Notes: generated from the letters alone by a model not told the origin. Positions 13,368-16,163 are shown, numbered from the stretch's first letter. The stretch: 64,000 bases of DNA from Acidobacteriaceae bacterium (GCA_003165075.1 PLSM01000094.1:40130-104129); one strand, 5' to 3'. A program made the numbers and translations.

Positions 13368-13778
13368 CTATTTCTTCGGAATTGCGAGCCACACTTGAAA
13401 AGAAGTGGAAAGCGTAAAGAGAATTGCCCCACCATACATTAGCCCAAGTCGCAACCACTCCCAATCTGAGAGCGCTTGAACTATATCATGTCCCTTCCAA
13501 AAGGAAAGAATGAGAATTCCAGCACAACCAACGGTTATCGCGTCAATCCGTAGGCTGTGCTCTATGACGTGCCCGGCTCCGATTGATTCGACGGCATTCG
13601 GAACTAACACCGCAAAAAGCGCACTTACTATCCCAAGTGCCGCAGTTGTGGTCACCATTCGTGACATATGGGGTGCCCATTTGGATAATCTGGCTCCGCC
13701 CATCAGCTCAGGTGTGACACACCAAAATGCGACGAAGTTTAACAAAATTGCCGTAATGTTCAGTGCGTCTCTGCTCAT
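13368..13778 (-). CDS. Hypothetical ~4-TM membrane protein
   Basis: MSRDALNITAILLNFVAFW...; four hydrophobic segments; last gene of the accessory operon. Confidence 0.7.
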   Translation of the reverse strand: MSRDALNITAILLNFVAFWCVTPELMGGARLSKWAPHMSRMVTTTAALGIVSALFAVLVPNAVESIGAGHVIEHSLRIDAITVGCAGILILSFWKGHDIVQALSDWEWLRLGLMYGGAILFTLSTSFQVWLAIPKK

Positions 13779-13858
13779 TCTGCCTTCCAAGTAAATCCGG
13801 TCAGCCGATTGACAGCCCGCTCATACACGGCGCGGGAATGCGGCAGAGGTTTCGACAT
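13775..13858 (-). CDS. Possible 27-aa peptide MSKPLPHSRAVYERAVNRLTGFTWKAE
   Basis: Fills the gap exactly; its TGA overlaps the next ATG (ATGA); weak RBS. Confidence 0.35.
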   Translation of the reverse strand: MSKPLPHSRAVYERAVNRLTGFTWKAE

Positions 13859-13866
13859 TACTTCAC

Positions 13867-13977
13867 TCATTTCTTCTTGCGCGGCGGCGGTGGTGGCGGT
13901 GCCTTCGGCGGCACATATCCGTCTGTGGTTCGGCTCCGGTTTGGGCCTGGACTCGGCCTCGTTGGTTCTTTCGGCAT
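13867..13977 (-). CDS. Proline-rich micropeptide 3 (36 aa) MPKEPTRPSPGPNRSRTTDGYVPPKAPPPPPPRKKK
   Basis: Manual translation; GAGG RBS formed by the preceding TGA-GG; shared GYxPP motif. Confidence 0.75.
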   Translation of the reverse strand: MPKEPTRPSPGPNRSRTTDGYVPPKAPPPPPPRKKK

Positions 13978-13985
13978 TGGTAGCC

Positions 13986-14096
13986 TCACTTGTTACGTGG
14001 TGGCGGTGGTGGTGGCGTTCTAGGTGGCACGTATCCCCCTTTTCGAGGATTCCTTGAAGGTGCCGGTGGTGGCGGCGGAGTTGGTGGCTTAGACAT
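13986..14096 (-). CDS. Proline-rich micropeptide 2 (36 aa) MSKPPTPPPPPAPSRNPRKGGYVPPRTPPPPPPRNK
   Basis: Manual translation; GAGG RBS; shared GYxPP motif. Confidence 0.75.
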   Translation of the reverse strand: MSKPPTPPPPPAPSRNPRKGGYVPPRTPPPPPPRNK

Positions 14097-14102
14097 GTGC
14101 CC

Positions 14103-14237
14103 TCACTTCTTTGGTGGCGGTGGCGCTTGCGGCTGTCTTGCCGGAATTGACTGTGTAGGCGGTGGAGGCGGGTTGCGTGGTGGTGTGTATCCCCGCCGCT
14201 CGGTATCTGGTTGAAATGGACTCGGTGTCTCTGGCAT
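14103..14237 (-). CDS. Proline-rich micropeptide 1 (44 aa) MPETPSPFQPDTERRGYTPPRNPPPPPTQSIPARQPQAPPPPKK
   Basis: Manual translation; GGAGG RBS; TAATG overlap with the upstream gene. Confidence 0.78.
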   Translation of the reverse strand: MPETPSPFQPDTERRGYTPPRNPPPPPTQSIPARQPQAPPPPKK

Positions 14238-14695
14238 TATTTTCCTCCCGGTTTTGCTAGGTTCTCAAGCGCGAAAATGACCCATGCAACTACCCCAAAA
14301 AAGAGGAATCCGACACATAGGTAATTGCACCAACTTGTAAGTGTGCCCCATCGGTCCGCAGTGGCTTTTGCATTTGAATTGCTCAACTCCGCCGCGCCGT
14401 CATCAATTCTCGCAAGGCACGCCTTGTGGCTGAATAAGAATGACAGAATCACGGCCAATAGCCCAATGGTGAAACAGGACCACGATACGCACAACCAAGG
14501 CAGGGAATAGGACTGAGGCTTGGGTGCCACGTCTTTGAGGAAGGCGACAGAGGCCCCAAATACGGCAGCGCCGAAAGCCAACACTGCTTGATCGAAAGTG
14601 CGTGAACTTTCGCGGGCCGCATCCGTCAGCTTGTCCCGCTCCGCCATGTGTTGAGCGTGTTTCTTCGTGGCATCTTCATAGCTTTCTTCTGTCAT
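14237..14695 (-). CDS. Hypothetical 3-TM membrane protein
   Basis: Charged N-helix followed by three hydrophobic segments (FDQAVLAFGAAVFGASVAF..., WLCVSWSCFTIGLLAVILSFLFS, YLCVGFLFFGVVAWVIFAL). Confidence 0.8.
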   Translation of the reverse strand: MTEESYEDATKKHAQHMAERDKLTDAARESSRTFDQAVLAFGAAVFGASVAFLKDVAPKPQSYSLPWLCVSWSCFTIGLLAVILSFLFSHKACLARIDDGAAELSNSNAKATADRWGTLTSWCNYLCVGFLFFGVVAWVIFALENLAKPGGK

Positions 14696-14716
14696 TGCGC
14701 GTCTCCGGTGGACCGC

Positions 14717-15472
14717 TCACTTTAGCTTGAGCACCACGTTGTCCACTAGGTCCACTATCAACGCATCGGTCTGGAGTTGTCCTATGCTCACGCTGGACGG
14801 ATGCGCCGCTGAGTTTCGTTTCCCCAACTTCTCATCCATGATCTTGTACACATCCTTCGTGATGATGCCTGCGTCCTTGCAAATCGTGATGACCTCGGAC
14901 TCTTTCAGCTCTTGCATGAAGTCATCAATCACACTGACTGTCTTGGTCCCGCTCTTGTGGTGACCGGGATATTTGACCACCCACCTTGCATTGAAGTCTG
15001 CCAAGCGGTGCTTGATGGTGTAGTCGCAAAGGTGGTGGTAGGCAAGATTCCAAGCCATCACTACAGTGGCACGGAATGCGCCGTGCTCATAGCAGATGAG
15101 CGTCTCATCAAGGAAAGTGCGCTCTGCTAGGCTCGGCACTTTGGCCGGAAGGTCACGCAAAATGGCCGTCACTTGCACCTTGTGACCACTCGGTGTGTAC
15201 GCTGCTGCTAGTTGGTCCCGAACTTCACCGGCAAGCCTGTAGCCGGAGCCGTTCTTGAGCAGTTGCTTTTGATCTGCCAGATTTCTGAAATAGCCGCCGA
15301 ATGAAGATGGGGGAACCTCATGCAGACCGTCATAACACTGCTTAACGTCAGCCGGGCTGAAGGTAAGCTGCTTCGCATAGAGATGGAGAAACCACCCGAA
15401 TAGCTTGATTTTGTCGGGATGGCCCTTTTGCGAGAATCCGGGGACCATCTGCTTAAAGTCCGCAAGTGTCAT
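14717..15472 (-). CDS. wHTH plus HEPN-like protein with R-x4-H motif (putative RNase)
   Basis: ETLICYEHGAFRATVVMAWNL helix and RNSAAH motif (14801-14818). Confidence 0.65.
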   Translation of the reverse strand: MTLADFKQMVPGFSQKGHPDKIKLFGWFLHLYAKQLTFSPADVKQCYDGLHEVPPSSFGGYFRNLADQKQLLKNGSGYRLAGEVRDQLAAAYTPSGHKVQVTAILRDLPAKVPSLAERTFLDETLICYEHGAFRATVVMAWNLAYHHLCDYTIKHRLADFNARWVVKYPGHHKSGTKTVSVIDDFMQELKESEVITICKDAGIITKDVYKIMDEKLGKRNSAAHPSSVSIGQLQTDALIVDLVDNVVLKLK

Positions 15473-15479
15473 ATGTCAG

Positions 15480-16163
15480 CTATCCCGCCTTGGCTACTGC
15501 CCGCGCCGCGTCCAGACCAATTTGCGTCAGCTTCCATGTCTTCGCACTAGGGTGCTCAAAATAGCTGTTCTTGCTCTTCATGTACCGGATGGGCTGAGAA
15601 AAATCAACCTGCTCATTCCACTTGACAGCTCTGAACAAAGTGAAAATGTGGTTGGTACCAAACTCGGGTGTCCCTGCATTTTCCGTGACCCAAAGGGCCG
15701 CGAGTAGATACCTCTCATTGTCACTTTTGGGTGAGTATTGAGCCGCGAATTCCTTCCAAGGCTTGTCACTCACCGACAAATCAAACGTGTCCAGAAACTT
15801 CGGTTTTGAAACGGACCGTGGCTTCCCGTTGCCTGAAGCTGCCGGGGCATCGATGGTGACCACATCATCTTCCTCATCTGCTTGAACGGTTTCCAGCTCT
15901 GGGTCTTCAGGTAATTCAACCTTGCCTTGCGCAGCGGAAAGGCGCTTCACCGTTGTGACCGCAGCCTGCCCGGTGCCTAGTGCGGCAACGGCATGATTAA
16001 GCGCGTCGAAACCCTTACGTAACGTGTCCCCGCTGCCCTTAATGCGAAGCACGAAGACCGTCATCTCTTCCTGTGCATCCGGCCCAACTGGAGGCACAGA
16101 ACCCCTCACGCCTTTAGTCATAGAAATAACCCCGATGTCAAGAGTGTAGCGGAAATTGGGCAA
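15480..16163 (-). CDS. Hypothetical protein with acidic linker and C-terminal wHTH-like domain (start may be 16121 or 16064)
   Basis: ERYLLAALW...FGTNHIFTLF...WKLTQIGLDAA pattern; 7 nt from the next gene. Confidence 0.7.
   Translation of the reverse strand: MPNFRYTLDIGVISMTKGVRGSVPPVGPDAQEEMTVFVLRIKGSGDTLRKGFDALNHAVAALGTGQAAVTTVKRLSAAQGKVELPEDPELETVQADEEDDVVTIDAPAASGNGKPRSVSKPKFLDTFDLSVSDKPWKEFAAQYSPKSDNERYLLAALWVTENAGTPEFGTNHIFTLFRAVKWNEQVDFSQPIRYMKSKNSYFEHPSAKTWKLTQIGLDAARAVAKAG

What the first reader, a model, noticed from the sequence alone, without database searches (positions are those of the whole stretch)
13368..16163. Accessory operon as a candidate new defence or toxin system: wHTH + HEPN + 3-TM + Pro-rich peptides + 4-TM
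Seen in sequence: eight co-oriented ORFs with gaps of 21 nt or less, or overlaps, all of unknown function. The block is visibly more A/T-rich than its flanks and sits between usp and the probable 6S RNA, bounded by palindromic elements. Established knowledge: HEPN RNases and small TM proteins are common anti-phage effectors and cluster in such islands. Inference: one multi-component system, for example TM sensors, peptide modulators and an RNase effector. I do not recognise this architecture as a named system.
Basis: partly seen in the sequence, partly recalled or inferred. Interest (0 to 1): 0.78.

Follow-up and report, generated by a model that had tools for sequence, protein, structure and literature searches.

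The report
Mosaic defence island, not one system
The eight tightly packed genes are real, but they form a 4-kb patchwork island of separately travelling modules: an uncharacterised RNase-type toxin pair, and a membrane protein that always comes with tiny proline-rich peptides and sits among phage-defence genes.

Summary
The eight co-oriented minus-strand ORFs exist as described. They lie in a roughly 4.0-kb accessory insert (12983-16988) between usp and a crp/fnr gene that are adjacent in relatives. No 6S RNA was found.

They are not one eight-part system. At least three units travel independently.

1. A+B (15472-16175). A is a winged-helix protein. B is a winged-helix plus HEPN protein with an invariant RNxxxH motif. 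An A homolog sits directly upstream of B in 13 of 13 distinct loci, from Acidobacteriota, Proteobacteria plasmids and phage contigs. This is most likely a toxin-antitoxin or abortive-infection RNase pair.

2. C+P1-P3 (13867-14695). C is a 3-TM protein whose Pro-rich tail (GY[VT]PP[KR]xPPPP...KK) is either fused or split off. Of 74 informative loci, 71 carry the tail. Of 30 fused genes, 29 keep an internal Shine-Dalgarno plus ATG/GTG/TTG at the junction. The peptides are under purifying selection (pN/pS 0.12-0.29). Neighbours include Thoeris, Wadjet, R-M, AbiTii and PDC-S57. A+B is a neighbour only in the window's own lineage and one other locus.

3. S is a relic of an HTH_17 gene. D is a rare 4-TM cargo gene.

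No function was tested. The C+P module is the unusual part.

The parts
12983..16988 (.). Accessory insert between the conserved usp gene (ends 13034) and the crp/fnr gene (ends 16989).
   Evidence: DNA homology to same-genus genomes stops at about 12982 and resumes at 16988. In G021, usp and crp are 80 bp apart; in G007, about 700 bp. GC is 54.2% against 58.7% for the genome.
16426..16988 (.). Copy of a dispersed non-coding repeat (350-490 nt, 72-80% identical copies).
   Evidence: blastn against the genome finds at least 14 copies on other contigs. The alignment shows a conserved C-rich core. No Rfam hit.
16122..16175 (-). Conserved leader or promoter stretch that belongs to the A+B cassette.
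   Evidence: 82-98% identical just upstream of A in otherwise unrelated loci (L006, L008, L011, L002, L009).
15480..16121 (-). Gene A, 213 aa. It has a conserved N-terminal strand-helix segment, an acidic disordered linker and a C-terminal winged-helix domain. Predicted partner or antitoxin of B.
   Evidence: Alignment A2. AF2 gives residues 105-213 pLDDT above 90 and residues 49-98 below 50. Foldseek hits are FOXN, MntR and MCM8 winged helices at probability 0.9-0.99. A homolog lies directly upstream of B in 13 of 13 loci.
14717..15472 (-). Gene B, 251 aa. N-terminal winged helix (about 1-80) plus a C-terminal all-helical HEPN-type domain (about 115-247) with RNSAAH at 219-224. Predicted RNase toxin or effector.
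   Evidence: R219, N220 and H224 are invariant in 55 of 55 sequences. AF2 pLDDT is 92.8. The best fold hits are HepT, AF_0298 and Csm6 HEPN, but weak (E>=0.47). A profile hit to Dandelion-HEPN 9wx2 has E 0.01. phrog_27609 matches at E 1.5e-5. There are 759 homologs, labelled PF27235.
14237..14695 (-). Gene C, 152 aa, a membrane protein with three hydrophobic segments. It is the core of the C+P module and here ends at ...GGK.
   Evidence: 219 homologs. Alignment A3. Hydropathy. No SLATT or other Pfam membership.
14103..14237 (-). P1, 44 aa. It is the split-off Pro-rich tail of C (RRGYTPPRNPPPPP...PPPPKK). Its ATG overlaps C's stop (TAATG) behind a GGAGG.
   Evidence: The same tail is fused in frame to C in 36 homolog loci. 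The junction sequences are. pN/pS is 0.26.
13986..14096 (-). P2, 36 aa, a Pro-rich peptide (GGYVPPRTPPPPPPRNK) with its own Shine-Dalgarno and ATG.
   Evidence: Orthologs are present in loci with C at 62-96% identity. pN/pS is 0.29.
13867..13977 (-). P3, 36 aa from the ATG (40 aa from GTG 13989), a Pro-rich peptide (NRSRTTDGYVPPKAPPPPPPRKKK).
   Evidence: It is the most conserved of the three, with pN/pS 0.12. Orthologs are shown.
13775..13870 (-). S, 31 codons. It is the 3' relic of an HTH_17-type gene and not an independent gene.
   Evidence: It aligns with the last codons of an intact 90-aa HTH_17 protein in L020 and with 18-codon remnants in L007 and L014. Beyond it the loci diverge (AbiTii, Mrr or D).
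13368..13778 (-). Gene D, 136 aa, with four hydrophobic segments. It is a rare cargo gene unrelated to A, B or C.
   Evidence: Only 4 relatives among 1.84 billion representative proteins. None in 400 genomes of the phylum. The relatives lie beside a transposase or AEP-primase mobile genes.
13141..13318 (.). Island-end element. A 123-nt block (13144-13266) is conserved at the end of other C+P islands, and it is framed here by a perfect 15-nt inverted repeat.
   Evidence: 90-95% identical in L049, L050 and L020, and weaker in L067, L011 and L002. In L020 it abuts a partial tRNA-like T-arm next to an integrase gene. No full tRNA is present. The inverted repeat is I2.

Best explanation
The block is a decayed, integrase-less defence-type genomic island. 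Independent cassettes have accreted head to tail in it.

(1) A+B is a self-contained two-gene module.
- B is a HEPN-family RNase that carries its own winged helix.
- A is encoded just upstream. It has a paralogous-looking winged helix, an acidic disordered linker and a short conserved N-terminal segment.
- I infer that A holds B inactive and probably autoregulates the operon, in the manner of a type II toxin-antitoxin or abortive-infection pair.
- I infer that phage infection or loss of the labile partner frees B to cut RNA and stop growth.

(2) C+P is a second self-contained module.
- C is a small membrane protein whose basic polyproline tail is always also made as a free peptide. The free peptide comes either from an internal start inside the fused gene or from split-off and duplicated micro-ORFs (P1-P3).
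- I infer that C is a membrane-acting effector or toxin, and that the free tail-like peptides tune or block it, as RpnS blocks RpnL.
- I infer that their PPPPPP runs make peptide supply depend on a healthy, EF-P-assisted translation apparatus.

(3) S is a gene relic and D is unrelated cargo.

Shown here: the anatomy, motif conservation, obligate pairings, independence of the modules, purifying selection, the conserved internal start, and the defence-island neighbourhoods.
Inferred only: RNase activity, toxicity, neutralisation, any anti-phage phenotype, and the role of polyproline.
For: Island status:
- B is absent from 40 relatives.
- usp and crp are adjacent in G021.
- GC is low.
- A conserved island-end element sits next to a tRNA fragment and an integrase in L020.

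A+B:
- RNxxxH is invariant.
- The model is confident and shows a winged helix plus a helical bundle.
- Fold and profile hits to HEPN proteins exist but are weak.
- The C-terminal domain of A is a winged helix.
- hhalign aligns A 126-190 with B 10-74, but weakly.
- A sits upstream of B in 13 of 13 loci, including an Ochrobactrum plasmid, a Ralstonia megaplasmid and two phage contigs beside terminase genes.
- Neighbours include AbiEi/AbiEii, NYN, nSTAND, PIN, VapC/Phd, a resolvase and a reverse transcriptase.
- Precedent: in the type IX retron a WH protein alone mitigates the toxicity of a HEPN nuclease.

C+P:
- 71 of 74 informative loci have the tail fused or split.
- 29 of 30 distinct fused genes keep a GGAG plus an in-frame start at the junction. 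At that position every Val codon is GTG and every Leu codon is TTG.
- P1-P3 form three orthologous groups with pN/pS of 0.26, 0.29 and 0.12.
- This is the only such locus in the 5.7-Mb genome.
- Neighbours are ThsA/ThsB, JetC/JetD, type II and III R-M, AbiTii, Mrr, a caspase-like protease, DUF499, PDC-S57 and integrases. Several of these overlap C's start by 4 nt.
- Precedent for a separately translated C-terminal piece acting as antitoxin: Rpn (PMC10327210).
Against: - No activity of any kind was tested.
- The structural matches of B to solved HEPN proteins are weak (E>=0.47). The local Pfam, NCBIfam and PADLOC libraries give nothing.
- A might be a sensor or co-effector rather than an antitoxin.
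- Membrane topology is a problem for C. A strict 3-TM, N-in topology would put the fused tail outside the cell, while free peptides without signal sequences stay inside. That would break a simple competition model.
- The C+P module could be an addiction, exclusion or envelope function rather than a defence function.
- Defence-island residence is guilt by association.
- A-B-C-P are contiguous and 97% conserved in L006-L008, and A+B lies near a distant C in L100. Some functional cooperation between the two modules is therefore not excluded.
Confidence: 0.6

Rival explanations
1. One reading: all eight ORFs form one multi-component defence system, with TM sensors, peptide modulators and a HEPN RNase effector acting together.
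For: The ORFs are co-oriented with spacings of 21 nt or less, and I saw no convincing terminator between them. A-B-C-P1-P3 are contiguous and about 95-97% identical in L006-L008. L100 shows a second, distant co-occurrence of C-tail and A+B within 1.2 kb.
Against: Of the 13 distinct A+B loci, 11 lack C+P; the two with it are the window's own lineage (L006) and L100. Of about 90 C loci, only the window's own lineage and L100 have A+B. C+P copies that are 86-96% identical follow methyltransferases or Wadjet instead. In L100 the gene order is reversed. The slot after P3 holds AbiTii, Mrr or D in different loci. D is nearly an orphan and S is a relic.
Confidence: 0.07
2. The Pro-rich micro-ORFs act in cis rather than as peptides. 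They would be EF-P-dependent arrest or attenuator ORFs whose ribosome stalling sets the expression of C or of whatever cargo gene follows (AbiTii, Mrr, D).
For: PPP to PPPPPP runs are kept in every copy. The ORFs are translationally coupled: TAATG at C/P1, and ATGA overlaps at P3/S and S/D. A variable effector slot lies directly downstream.
Against: Many loci have no co-oriented gene after the peptides (L017, L019, L023, L026, L027, L031). Residues outside the Pro run (GY, TTDG, the N-terminal halves, the KK ends) are conserved with pN/pS 0.12-0.29. This argues for a peptide product. In half of the loci the tail is part of protein C.
Confidence: 0.12
3. C+P is not a defence module. It would be a mobile-element housekeeping function, such as a plasmid- or island-addiction (toxin-antitoxin stabilisation) cassette, a superinfection-exclusion membrane protein, or an envelope anchor with a Pro-rich spacer.
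For: It always lies in integrase-, transposase- or prophage-associated DNA. It occupies the end of islands beside an att-like element. Earlier AI notes place analogous modules of a TM protein plus Pro-rich peptides in the sieB slot of E. coli prophages (not checked here).
Against: Only 2 hits in 2.9 million viral contigs and none in plasmids, which is poor for a general addiction module. Roughly a quarter or more of the immediate neighbours match PADLOC defence models. The free peptides lack signal sequences, which does not fit an envelope spacer.
Confidence: 0.15
4. B is not a toxin. The A+B pair would be a pair of winged-helix DNA-binding regulators, with the HEPN-like bundle serving as a ligand-binding or dimerisation domain.
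For: Both proteins carry winged helices. A conserved leader lies upstream. The HEPN fold matches are weak. Non-catalytic HEPN domains are known (established knowledge; Anantharaman et al. 2013, PMC3710099).
Against: The catalytic-type R-N-x-x-x-H is invariant across 55 diverse sequences, together with other polar invariants (E117, E123, R134, N142). The distribution is sparse and patchy: 1 further full-length hit in 400 genomes of the phylum. The contexts are TA, Abi and phage loci, which is typical of conflict genes and not of regulators.
Confidence: 0.1

Closest known systems
HepT/MntA (HEPN/MNT) toxin-antitoxin modules
   Same: A two-gene operon whose toxin is a small HEPN RNase with an Rx4-6H motif. 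HepT chains are the best Foldseek matches of B (6m6u, 5yep, 7bxo).
   Different: The partner A is not a nucleotidyltransferase. It has no Pfam hit and its fold is a winged helix plus a disordered linker, so neutralisation by AMPylation is not expected. B has an extra N-terminal winged helix. The fold match is weak (E>=0.47).
HEPN-WH effector pair of type IX retrons (Retron-Kva2, bioRxiv 10.64898/2026.07.14.738597)
   Same: A HEPN nuclease encoded next to a winged-helix protein. In that system the WH protein alone mitigates HEPN toxicity, and the pair mediates abortive infection.
   Different: There is no reverse transcriptase or ncRNA beside A+B in the window or in most homolog loci. The retron HEPN lacks the Rx4-6H motif that B has. 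The retron WH protein has three domains, unlike A. No sequence similarity was detected.
Pfam PF27235 'AF_1680' (the label carried by B homologs in the protein collection)
   Same: All 120 listed B homologs carry this precomputed label, so B belongs to a family that Pfam has recently delimited.
   Different: The entry is absent from the local Pfam copy. I found no paper mentioning it, so I could not read its description. RefSeq calls both members of the pair 'hypothetical protein'.
Rpn 'gene-within-gene' toxin-antitoxins (RpnL/RpnS; PMC10327210)
   Same: The C-terminal piece of a protein is also translated on its own from an internal start. In Rpn the small product blocks the toxic long one, and the system acts against phage (abstract). 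C-tail genes keep an internal Shine-Dalgarno plus start codon in 29 of 30 cases.
   Different: Rpn is a nuclease and C is a membrane protein. Here the small product is a polyproline peptide that is often split off and duplicated up to three times. Separate translation and antagonism are untested.
Small membrane effectors of defence systems (SLATT-type 2-TM proteins, PycTM and the like) and animal proline-rich antimicrobial peptides
   Same: The effectors are small multi-TM proteins in conflict loci. The peptides recall the YLPRP / PRPPHPRL type of ribosome- or DnaK-binding PrAMPs; this resemblance is from memory and is a lead only. Earlier AI notes of this scan report TM-plus-Pro-rich-micropeptide cassettes in E. 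coli prophages and another bacterium.
   Different: No SLATT or PADLOC model matches any of 43 C-family members. There is no sequence link to those other cassettes. The peptides are bacterial, carry no signal sequence and are fused to C in half of the loci.

Membership tests
HEPN superfamily (protein B) | Rx4-6H motif conserved in the family | tested here: met
   R219-N-S-A-A-H224. R219, N220 and H224 are invariant in 55 of 55 aligned homologs.
HEPN superfamily (protein B) | All-alpha helical-bundle fold matching solved HEPN domains | tested here: inconclusive
   The AF2 model (pLDDT 92.8) is all-helical over residues 118-247. The top Foldseek hits are HepT, AF_0298 and Csm6, but with E 0.47-2.3 and TM 0.38-0.50 on the target. 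A profile search hits Dandelion-HEPN 9wx2 at E 0.01 over the first helix only.
HEPN superfamily (protein B) | Metal-independent RNase activity that depends on the R and H residues | not testable with these tools
   Needs biochemistry.
HepT/MntA type VII toxin-antitoxin | The cognate partner is a MNT-family nucleotidyltransferase | tested here: not met
   A has no NTase hit in Pfam or NCBIfam. Its only folded domain is a winged helix.
Type II toxin-antitoxin module (A+B) | Obligate bicistronic pairing, with the DNA-binding, partly disordered partner encoded upstream | tested here: met
   An A homolog lies directly upstream of B on the same strand in 13 of 13 loci. The gap is 7 nt or the genes overlap. 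A has a winged helix and a disordered acidic linker.
Type II toxin-antitoxin module (A+B) | The toxin arrests growth and the partner neutralises it by binding | not testable with these tools
   No expression test was possible.
Type IX retron | A reverse transcriptase and msr/msd ncRNA next to the HEPN and WH genes | tested here: not met
   There is no RT ORF and no Rfam hit in the island. Homolog contexts are variable. An RT gene lies 2 kb away only in phage contig L118.
Any system in PADLOC-DB 2.0 | Significant match of a component to a PADLOC model | tested here: not met
   The only hit is PD-T7-3 at E 0.03 over 28 residues of B. Nothing matches A, C, P1-P3 or D at E<=1.
SLATT 2-TM effectors (protein C) | Match to a SLATT Pfam model | tested here: not met
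   No SLATT family is among the hits at E<=0.1 for any of 43 C-family members. Only sub-threshold DUF4337 (12 of 43 members) and DUF2207_C (14 of 43) hits appear.
Gene-within-gene (Rpn-like) toxin-antitoxin (C+P) | A conserved internal translation start that yields the C-terminal piece alone | tested here: met
   29 of 30 distinct fused C-tail genes have an in-frame ATG, GTG or TTG six codons after the ...EN[LIV] motif, preceded by a GGAG-type Shine-Dalgarno. Every Val codon there is GTG and every Leu codon is TTG. In split genes the same site is the P1 start.
Gene-within-gene (Rpn-like) toxin-antitoxin (C+P) | The small product antagonises a toxic long product | not testable with these tools
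   Needs expression tests.
   No Rfam family matches at gathering score in the window or at E<=1 in 12900-17100.

The most novel reading that the evidence does not exclude
C+P is a new kind of conflict module, widespread in Acidobacteriota and possibly analogous to the cassettes of a TM protein plus Pro-rich micropeptides noted in enterobacterial prophages. In it, a membrane effector would be gated by separately translated polyproline peptides. The peptides would couple cell fate to the state of the translation machinery. They could do this as short-lived antidotes whose synthesis needs EF-P-assisted ribosomes, or as intracellular PrAMP-like ligands of the ribosomal exit tunnel. Phage takeover of translation would then trigger the effector.
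Probability: 0.15. Interest if true: 0.85.

Novelty: new variant of a known kind. Interest (0 to 1): 0.6.

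Why it matters
The result turns one speculative eight-gene system into two sharply delimited, testable modules.

A+B is a phylum-spanning, always-paired winged-helix/HEPN cassette. RefSeq still annotates both members as hypothetical. It would add a HEPN toxin family whose neutraliser is neither an MNT enzyme nor a retron.

C+P is the more unusual module. It is a small membrane protein whose polyproline tail is evolutionarily toggled between fused and split forms, is duplicated into micro-ORF arrays, and appears to be translated on its own even when fused. 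It sits beside Thoeris, Wadjet, R-M and AbiTii genes. Micro-ORFs of 34-45 codons are missed by annotation pipelines, so this is a concrete, conserved case for studying small proteins in bacterial immunity. It also allows the old question of what consecutive-proline motifs are for to be tested outside core metabolism.

Tried and rejected
- 6S RNA at the right flank. Rejected: no Rfam hit at any threshold. The stretch is a dispersed repeat.
- Programmed -1 frameshift at GGA AAA TAA joining C to P1. Considered because a fused product would be 197 aa, like the fused homologs. Judged unlikely: most split loci have AAG TAA, the GGAGG spacing does not fit -1 stimulation, and a conserved Shine-Dalgarno plus start explains the junction better.
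- Gly-rich antisense ORFs over the peptide region, which gene callers had called in L006-L008. Rejected: the sense frame has the lowest pN/pS, the tail is fused in frame to C elsewhere, and each peptide has a Shine-Dalgarno and an ATG.
- Palindromic operator AAATTGCCCAATTT upstream of A. It is not conserved in other A+B loci.
- Promoter and terminator scan. Counts were within the shuffle expectation, so it is uninformative.
- tRNA genes as integration targets. None in the window or in nine loci. Only a partial T-arm-like fragment is seen in L020.
- A/B winged-helix paralogy. hhalign aligns the expected regions, but at E 0.026 and probability 1.9%, so it remains a lead.
- SLATT membership of C. 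Not met.
- Searches that found nothing useful: PDB sequence searches for A and B, Foldseek of B against BFVD, tblastn of B against GenBank phages and of C against plasmids, and literature searches for AF_1680, PF27235 and Dandelion.
- A Pro-motif scan of viral contigs gave only unrelated proteins apart from the known locus.
- The look-up of the Terracidiphilus gabretensis protein P0192 was not on record.

Full report
**1. What is in the sequence**

The minus strand of 13368-16163 carries eight co-oriented ORFs.

| ORF | Coordinates | Length | Note |
|---|---|---|---|
| A | 15480-16121 | 213 aa | from the ATG that homologs use; the ORF list starts it at TTG 16163 |
| B | 14717-15472 | 251 aa | |
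| C | 14237-14695 | 152 aa | |
| P1 | 14103-14237 | 44 aa | |
| P2 | 13986-14096 | 36 aa | |
| P3 | 13867-13977 | 36 aa | |
| S | 13775-13870 | 31 codons | |
| D | 13368-13778 | 136 aa | |

- The spacings are 7, 21, -1, 6, 8, -4 and -4 nt.
- None of the ORFs matches the local Pfam, NCBIfam or PADLOC libraries at a meaningful level. PHROGs gives only an unnamed family for B.
- GC is 53.6% against 58.7% for the genome, the 5.7th percentile of equal-sized tiles.
- Hydropathy gives three hydrophobic segments in C and four in D.
- The left landmark is a tandem Usp protein and the right conserved gene is a Crp/Fnr regulator.
- The 'probable 6S RNA' is not there. Rfam finds nothing in the window at gathering score and nothing at E<=1 in 12900-17100.

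**2. An accessory insert**

- B has no homolog in 40 related genomes, 24 of them from the same genus.
- Orthologs of usp are present in 25 of the 26 genomes searched in the genus, the window's own included.
- In G021, usp and crp are 80 bp apart. In G007 they are about 700 bp apart. DNA similarity to the window stops at about 12982 and resumes at 16988.
- The insert is therefore about 4.0 kb, wider than the ORF block.
- Its crp-side end (16426-16988) is a copy of a dispersed 350-490-nt non-coding repeat with at least 14 copies in this genome.
- Its usp-side end carries a 123-nt block (13144-13266). This block is 90-95% identical at the ends of other islands (L049, L050, L020) and weaker in L067, L011 and L002.
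- In L020 the block abuts a partial tRNA-like T-arm and an integrase gene. No intact tRNA is present in any of these loci.
- I read the insert as the remnant of an integrative island that has lost its integrase. This is an inference.

**3. Module A+B**

Protein B:
- B has 759 detectable homologs. All listed ones carry the precomputed label PF27235 'AF_1680'. That entry is missing from the local Pfam copy and from the searchable literature.
- In an alignment of 55 sequences at 51-88% identity, R219, N220 and H224 (RNSAAH, an Rx4H motif) are invariant. So are E117, E123, R134 and N142.
- AlphaFold2 gives a confident model (pLDDT 92.8). It shows an N-terminal winged helix (residues 1-80), a long connecting helix and an all-helical C-terminal domain.
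- Foldseek's best PDB matches are HEPN toxins (HepT), the AF_0298 HEPN protein and Csm6, but they are weak (E>=0.47).
- A profile search of PDB sequences finds 'Dandelion-HEPN' (9wx2) at E 0.01.
- The motif test for HEPN is met. The fold test is suggestive but not decisive.

Protein A:
- A has a conserved N-terminal segment (QEEMTVxVLRxKGGGDTLxKGFDALNxAFAALG) and a variable acidic linker predicted to be disordered.
- Its C-terminal domain (residues 105-213) is confidently folded. It matches FOXN, MntR and MCM8 winged helices with probability 0.9-0.99.
- hhalign puts A 126-190 on B 10-74, the register expected if the two winged helices are paralogous. The statistics are poor (E 0.026).

The pairing is obligate:
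- With profile HMMs, an A homolog (E<=6e-20) lies immediately upstream of B in all 13 distinct loci examined.
- Those loci are seven metagenomic contexts, an acidobacterial genome, L100, two IMG/VR phage contigs where the pair sits beside terminase and portal genes, Ochrobactrum plasmid pLM19O1, and a Ralstonia megaplasmid.
- About 50 nt upstream of A also travel with the pair.

Distribution and neighbours:
- The family is sparse, with one further full-length hit in 400 genomes of the phylum.
- Its neighbours are AbiEi/AbiEii, NYN, nSTAND plus Mrr, PIN, Phd/VapC, resolvases, transposases and a reverse transcriptase.

**4. Module C+P**

The tail is part of the family:
- C has at least 219 homologs.
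- The alignment shows two forms. One form is about 150 aa and ends ...GGK. The other is about 195 aa and continues into a basic, proline-rich tail carrying the same motif as P1-P3: (K/R)(K/R)GY(V/T)PP(K/R)xPPPP...KK.
- P1 is therefore the split-off tail of C. P2 and P3 are further paralogous copies.
- I collected 19 loci from species genomes, 71 from metagenomes and 2 from viral contigs.
- Of 74 informative loci, 36 have the tail fused, 35 have it split with 1-3 free peptide ORFs, and only 3 show none.

The junction suggests separate translation:
- In split genes the stop of C overlaps the P1 start (TAATG) behind a GGAGG.
- In 29 of 30 distinct fused genes the same position holds an in-frame ATG, GTG or TTG behind a GGAG-type Shine-Dalgarno.
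- Whenever the residue there is Val or Leu, the codon is GTG or TTG and never another synonymous codon.
- This strongly suggests that the tail peptide is also translated on its own in fused genes, a gene-within-gene arrangement.

The peptides are real products:
- P1, P2 and P3 are three distinct orthologous groups. They are retained across loci in which C is 62-96% identical.
- pN/pS is 0.26, 0.29 and 0.12. In each case the sense frame has the lowest ratio.
- The gene callers behind the public contigs missed these ORFs and sometimes called the Gly-rich antisense frame instead.
- The 5.7-Mb genome has only this one locus with the motif.

Neighbourhood:
- ThsA/ThsB (Thoeris) in Terracidiphilus gabretensis.
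- A type III R-M pair and N6/N4 methyltransferases whose stop codons overlap C's start.
- JetC/JetD (Wadjet), a caspase-like protease, DUF499, AbiTii, Mrr, XamI-type and other REases, TIR proteins, PDC-S02, PDC-S57 and PDC-S60 candidates, and integrases.
- No SLATT or PADLOC model matches C.

**5. S and D**

- S aligns with the last codons of an intact 90-aa HTH_17 protein in L020 and with shorter remnants in L007 and L014. Beyond it the loci diverge into AbiTii (L007, L014), Mrr (L020) or D (window). S is a relic that marks a cargo slot and is not a gene of the system.
- D has four relatives among 1.84 billion representative proteins. They share its first and last helices, so D is a real but rare family.
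- D has no relatives in 400 genomes of the phylum. The relatives that exist sit beside a transposase or AEP-primase/AAA mobile genes, without A, B or C.

**6. One system or several**

- A+B and C+P each have near-perfect internal linkage but almost no linkage to each other.
- Among about 90 C loci, only the window's own lineage (L059) and L100 have A+B. L006-L008 show the same pairing from the B side.
- In L100 the order is reversed and the modules lie 1.2 kb apart.
- C+P copies 86-96% identical to the window's follow methyltransferases or Wadjet.
It is emphatically not met within each module.

**7. Mechanism, inferred**

A+B:
- I favour a type II toxin-antitoxin or abortive-infection logic, at about 60%.
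- B would be a HEPN RNase held inactive by A through A's N-terminal segment, its acidic linker, or both.
- One or both winged helices would bind the conserved leader for autoregulation, or bind nucleic acid as a trigger.
- The closest functional precedent is the type IX retron, where a WH protein alone mitigates a HEPN nuclease's toxicity. No reverse transcriptase is involved here, and B keeps the canonical motif.

C+P:
- I favour, at about 35%, a membrane effector whose action is tuned by free copies of its own tail. The analogy is RpnS/RpnL (PMC10327210).
- Polyproline would make peptide supply depend on EF-P-assisted translation.
- Alternatives are cis-acting arrest ORFs, an island-addiction or exclusion function, and PrAMP-like ribosome ligands.
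- Topology is unresolved. A strict N-in, 3-TM model would put the fused tail outside the cell.

**8. Known relatives, novelty and limits**

- A+B is a new, uncharacterised member of the HEPN two-gene world. Its family is delimited by Pfam but unnamed in RefSeq.
- I could find no description of C+P.
- Earlier AI notes of this scan describe analogous cassettes of a TM protein plus Pro-rich micropeptides in E. coli prophages and another bacterium. I did not test any link to them.
- Nothing functional was tested.

Noticed in passing
window 16426-16988, and contigs C5, C158, C68, C108, C143, C159, C95 and others of the same genome: A dispersed non-coding repeat of 350-490 nt with at least 14 copies at 72-80% identity. 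It has a conserved core that includes a CCCCCACCCCCCTCCCCC tract and TTAATGGTAAACAGAAGCCCCTGAAAAATGCCCCTTTTCG. No Rfam match. It might be a MITE-like element or an unknown ncRNA family.
   Followed up: partly
window 13141-13318; L020 7219-7339; L049 7290-7412: A conserved 123-nt island-end element containing two GTACCGTC direct repeats. In L020 it lies next to a partial tRNA-like T-arm (GGGGCTCGAACCCGCGACC) and a tyrosine integrase gene. It looks like an att arm of a family of small integrative defence islands.
   Followed up: partly
L016 5849-6430, L021 2447-3028, L047 1417-1998: A conserved 193-aa protein with no Pfam hit (MK.DI..KL...........VVY.LVEARKLLE...) recurs within a few kb of C+P modules in unrelated contexts. 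It may be another defence-island gene.
   Followed up: no
L118 5377-6738 and L119 5377-6747 (IMG/VR contigs): The A+B pair sits as a moron between the terminase genes and an HNH endonuclease in two related phage or prophage contigs. L118 also carries a reverse-transcriptase gene (RVT_1) 2 kb away.
   Followed up: partly
L018 3230-5976 (Terracidiphilus gabretensis S55): A cultured strain carries ThsA(Macro)/ThsB(TIR) Thoeris genes immediately upstream of a C homolog. That homolog has an atypical fused tail and is followed by further GYxPP peptide ORFs. This strain could serve for experiments.
   Followed up: partly
L049 8-6011: JetC and JetD (Wadjet) are followed by two small unknown genes. The second (267 aa) overlaps the start of a C+P module that is 90% identical to the window's.
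   Followed up: partly
L019 5345-6038: One locus has four successive GY[VI]PP peptide ORFs after C. Some are readable only from upstream alternative starts, so the array size varies from 1 to 4.
   Followed up: no
window 13368-13778 (D) and P0291-P0294: D defines a very small family of 136-177-aa membrane proteins. The first helix (LNITAI.L.F..FW.V.PEL.G) and the last helix (GAILF..S...Q) are conserved and the middle is variable. Relatives occur beside AEP-primase, AAA_25 and nSTAND genes.
   Followed up: partly
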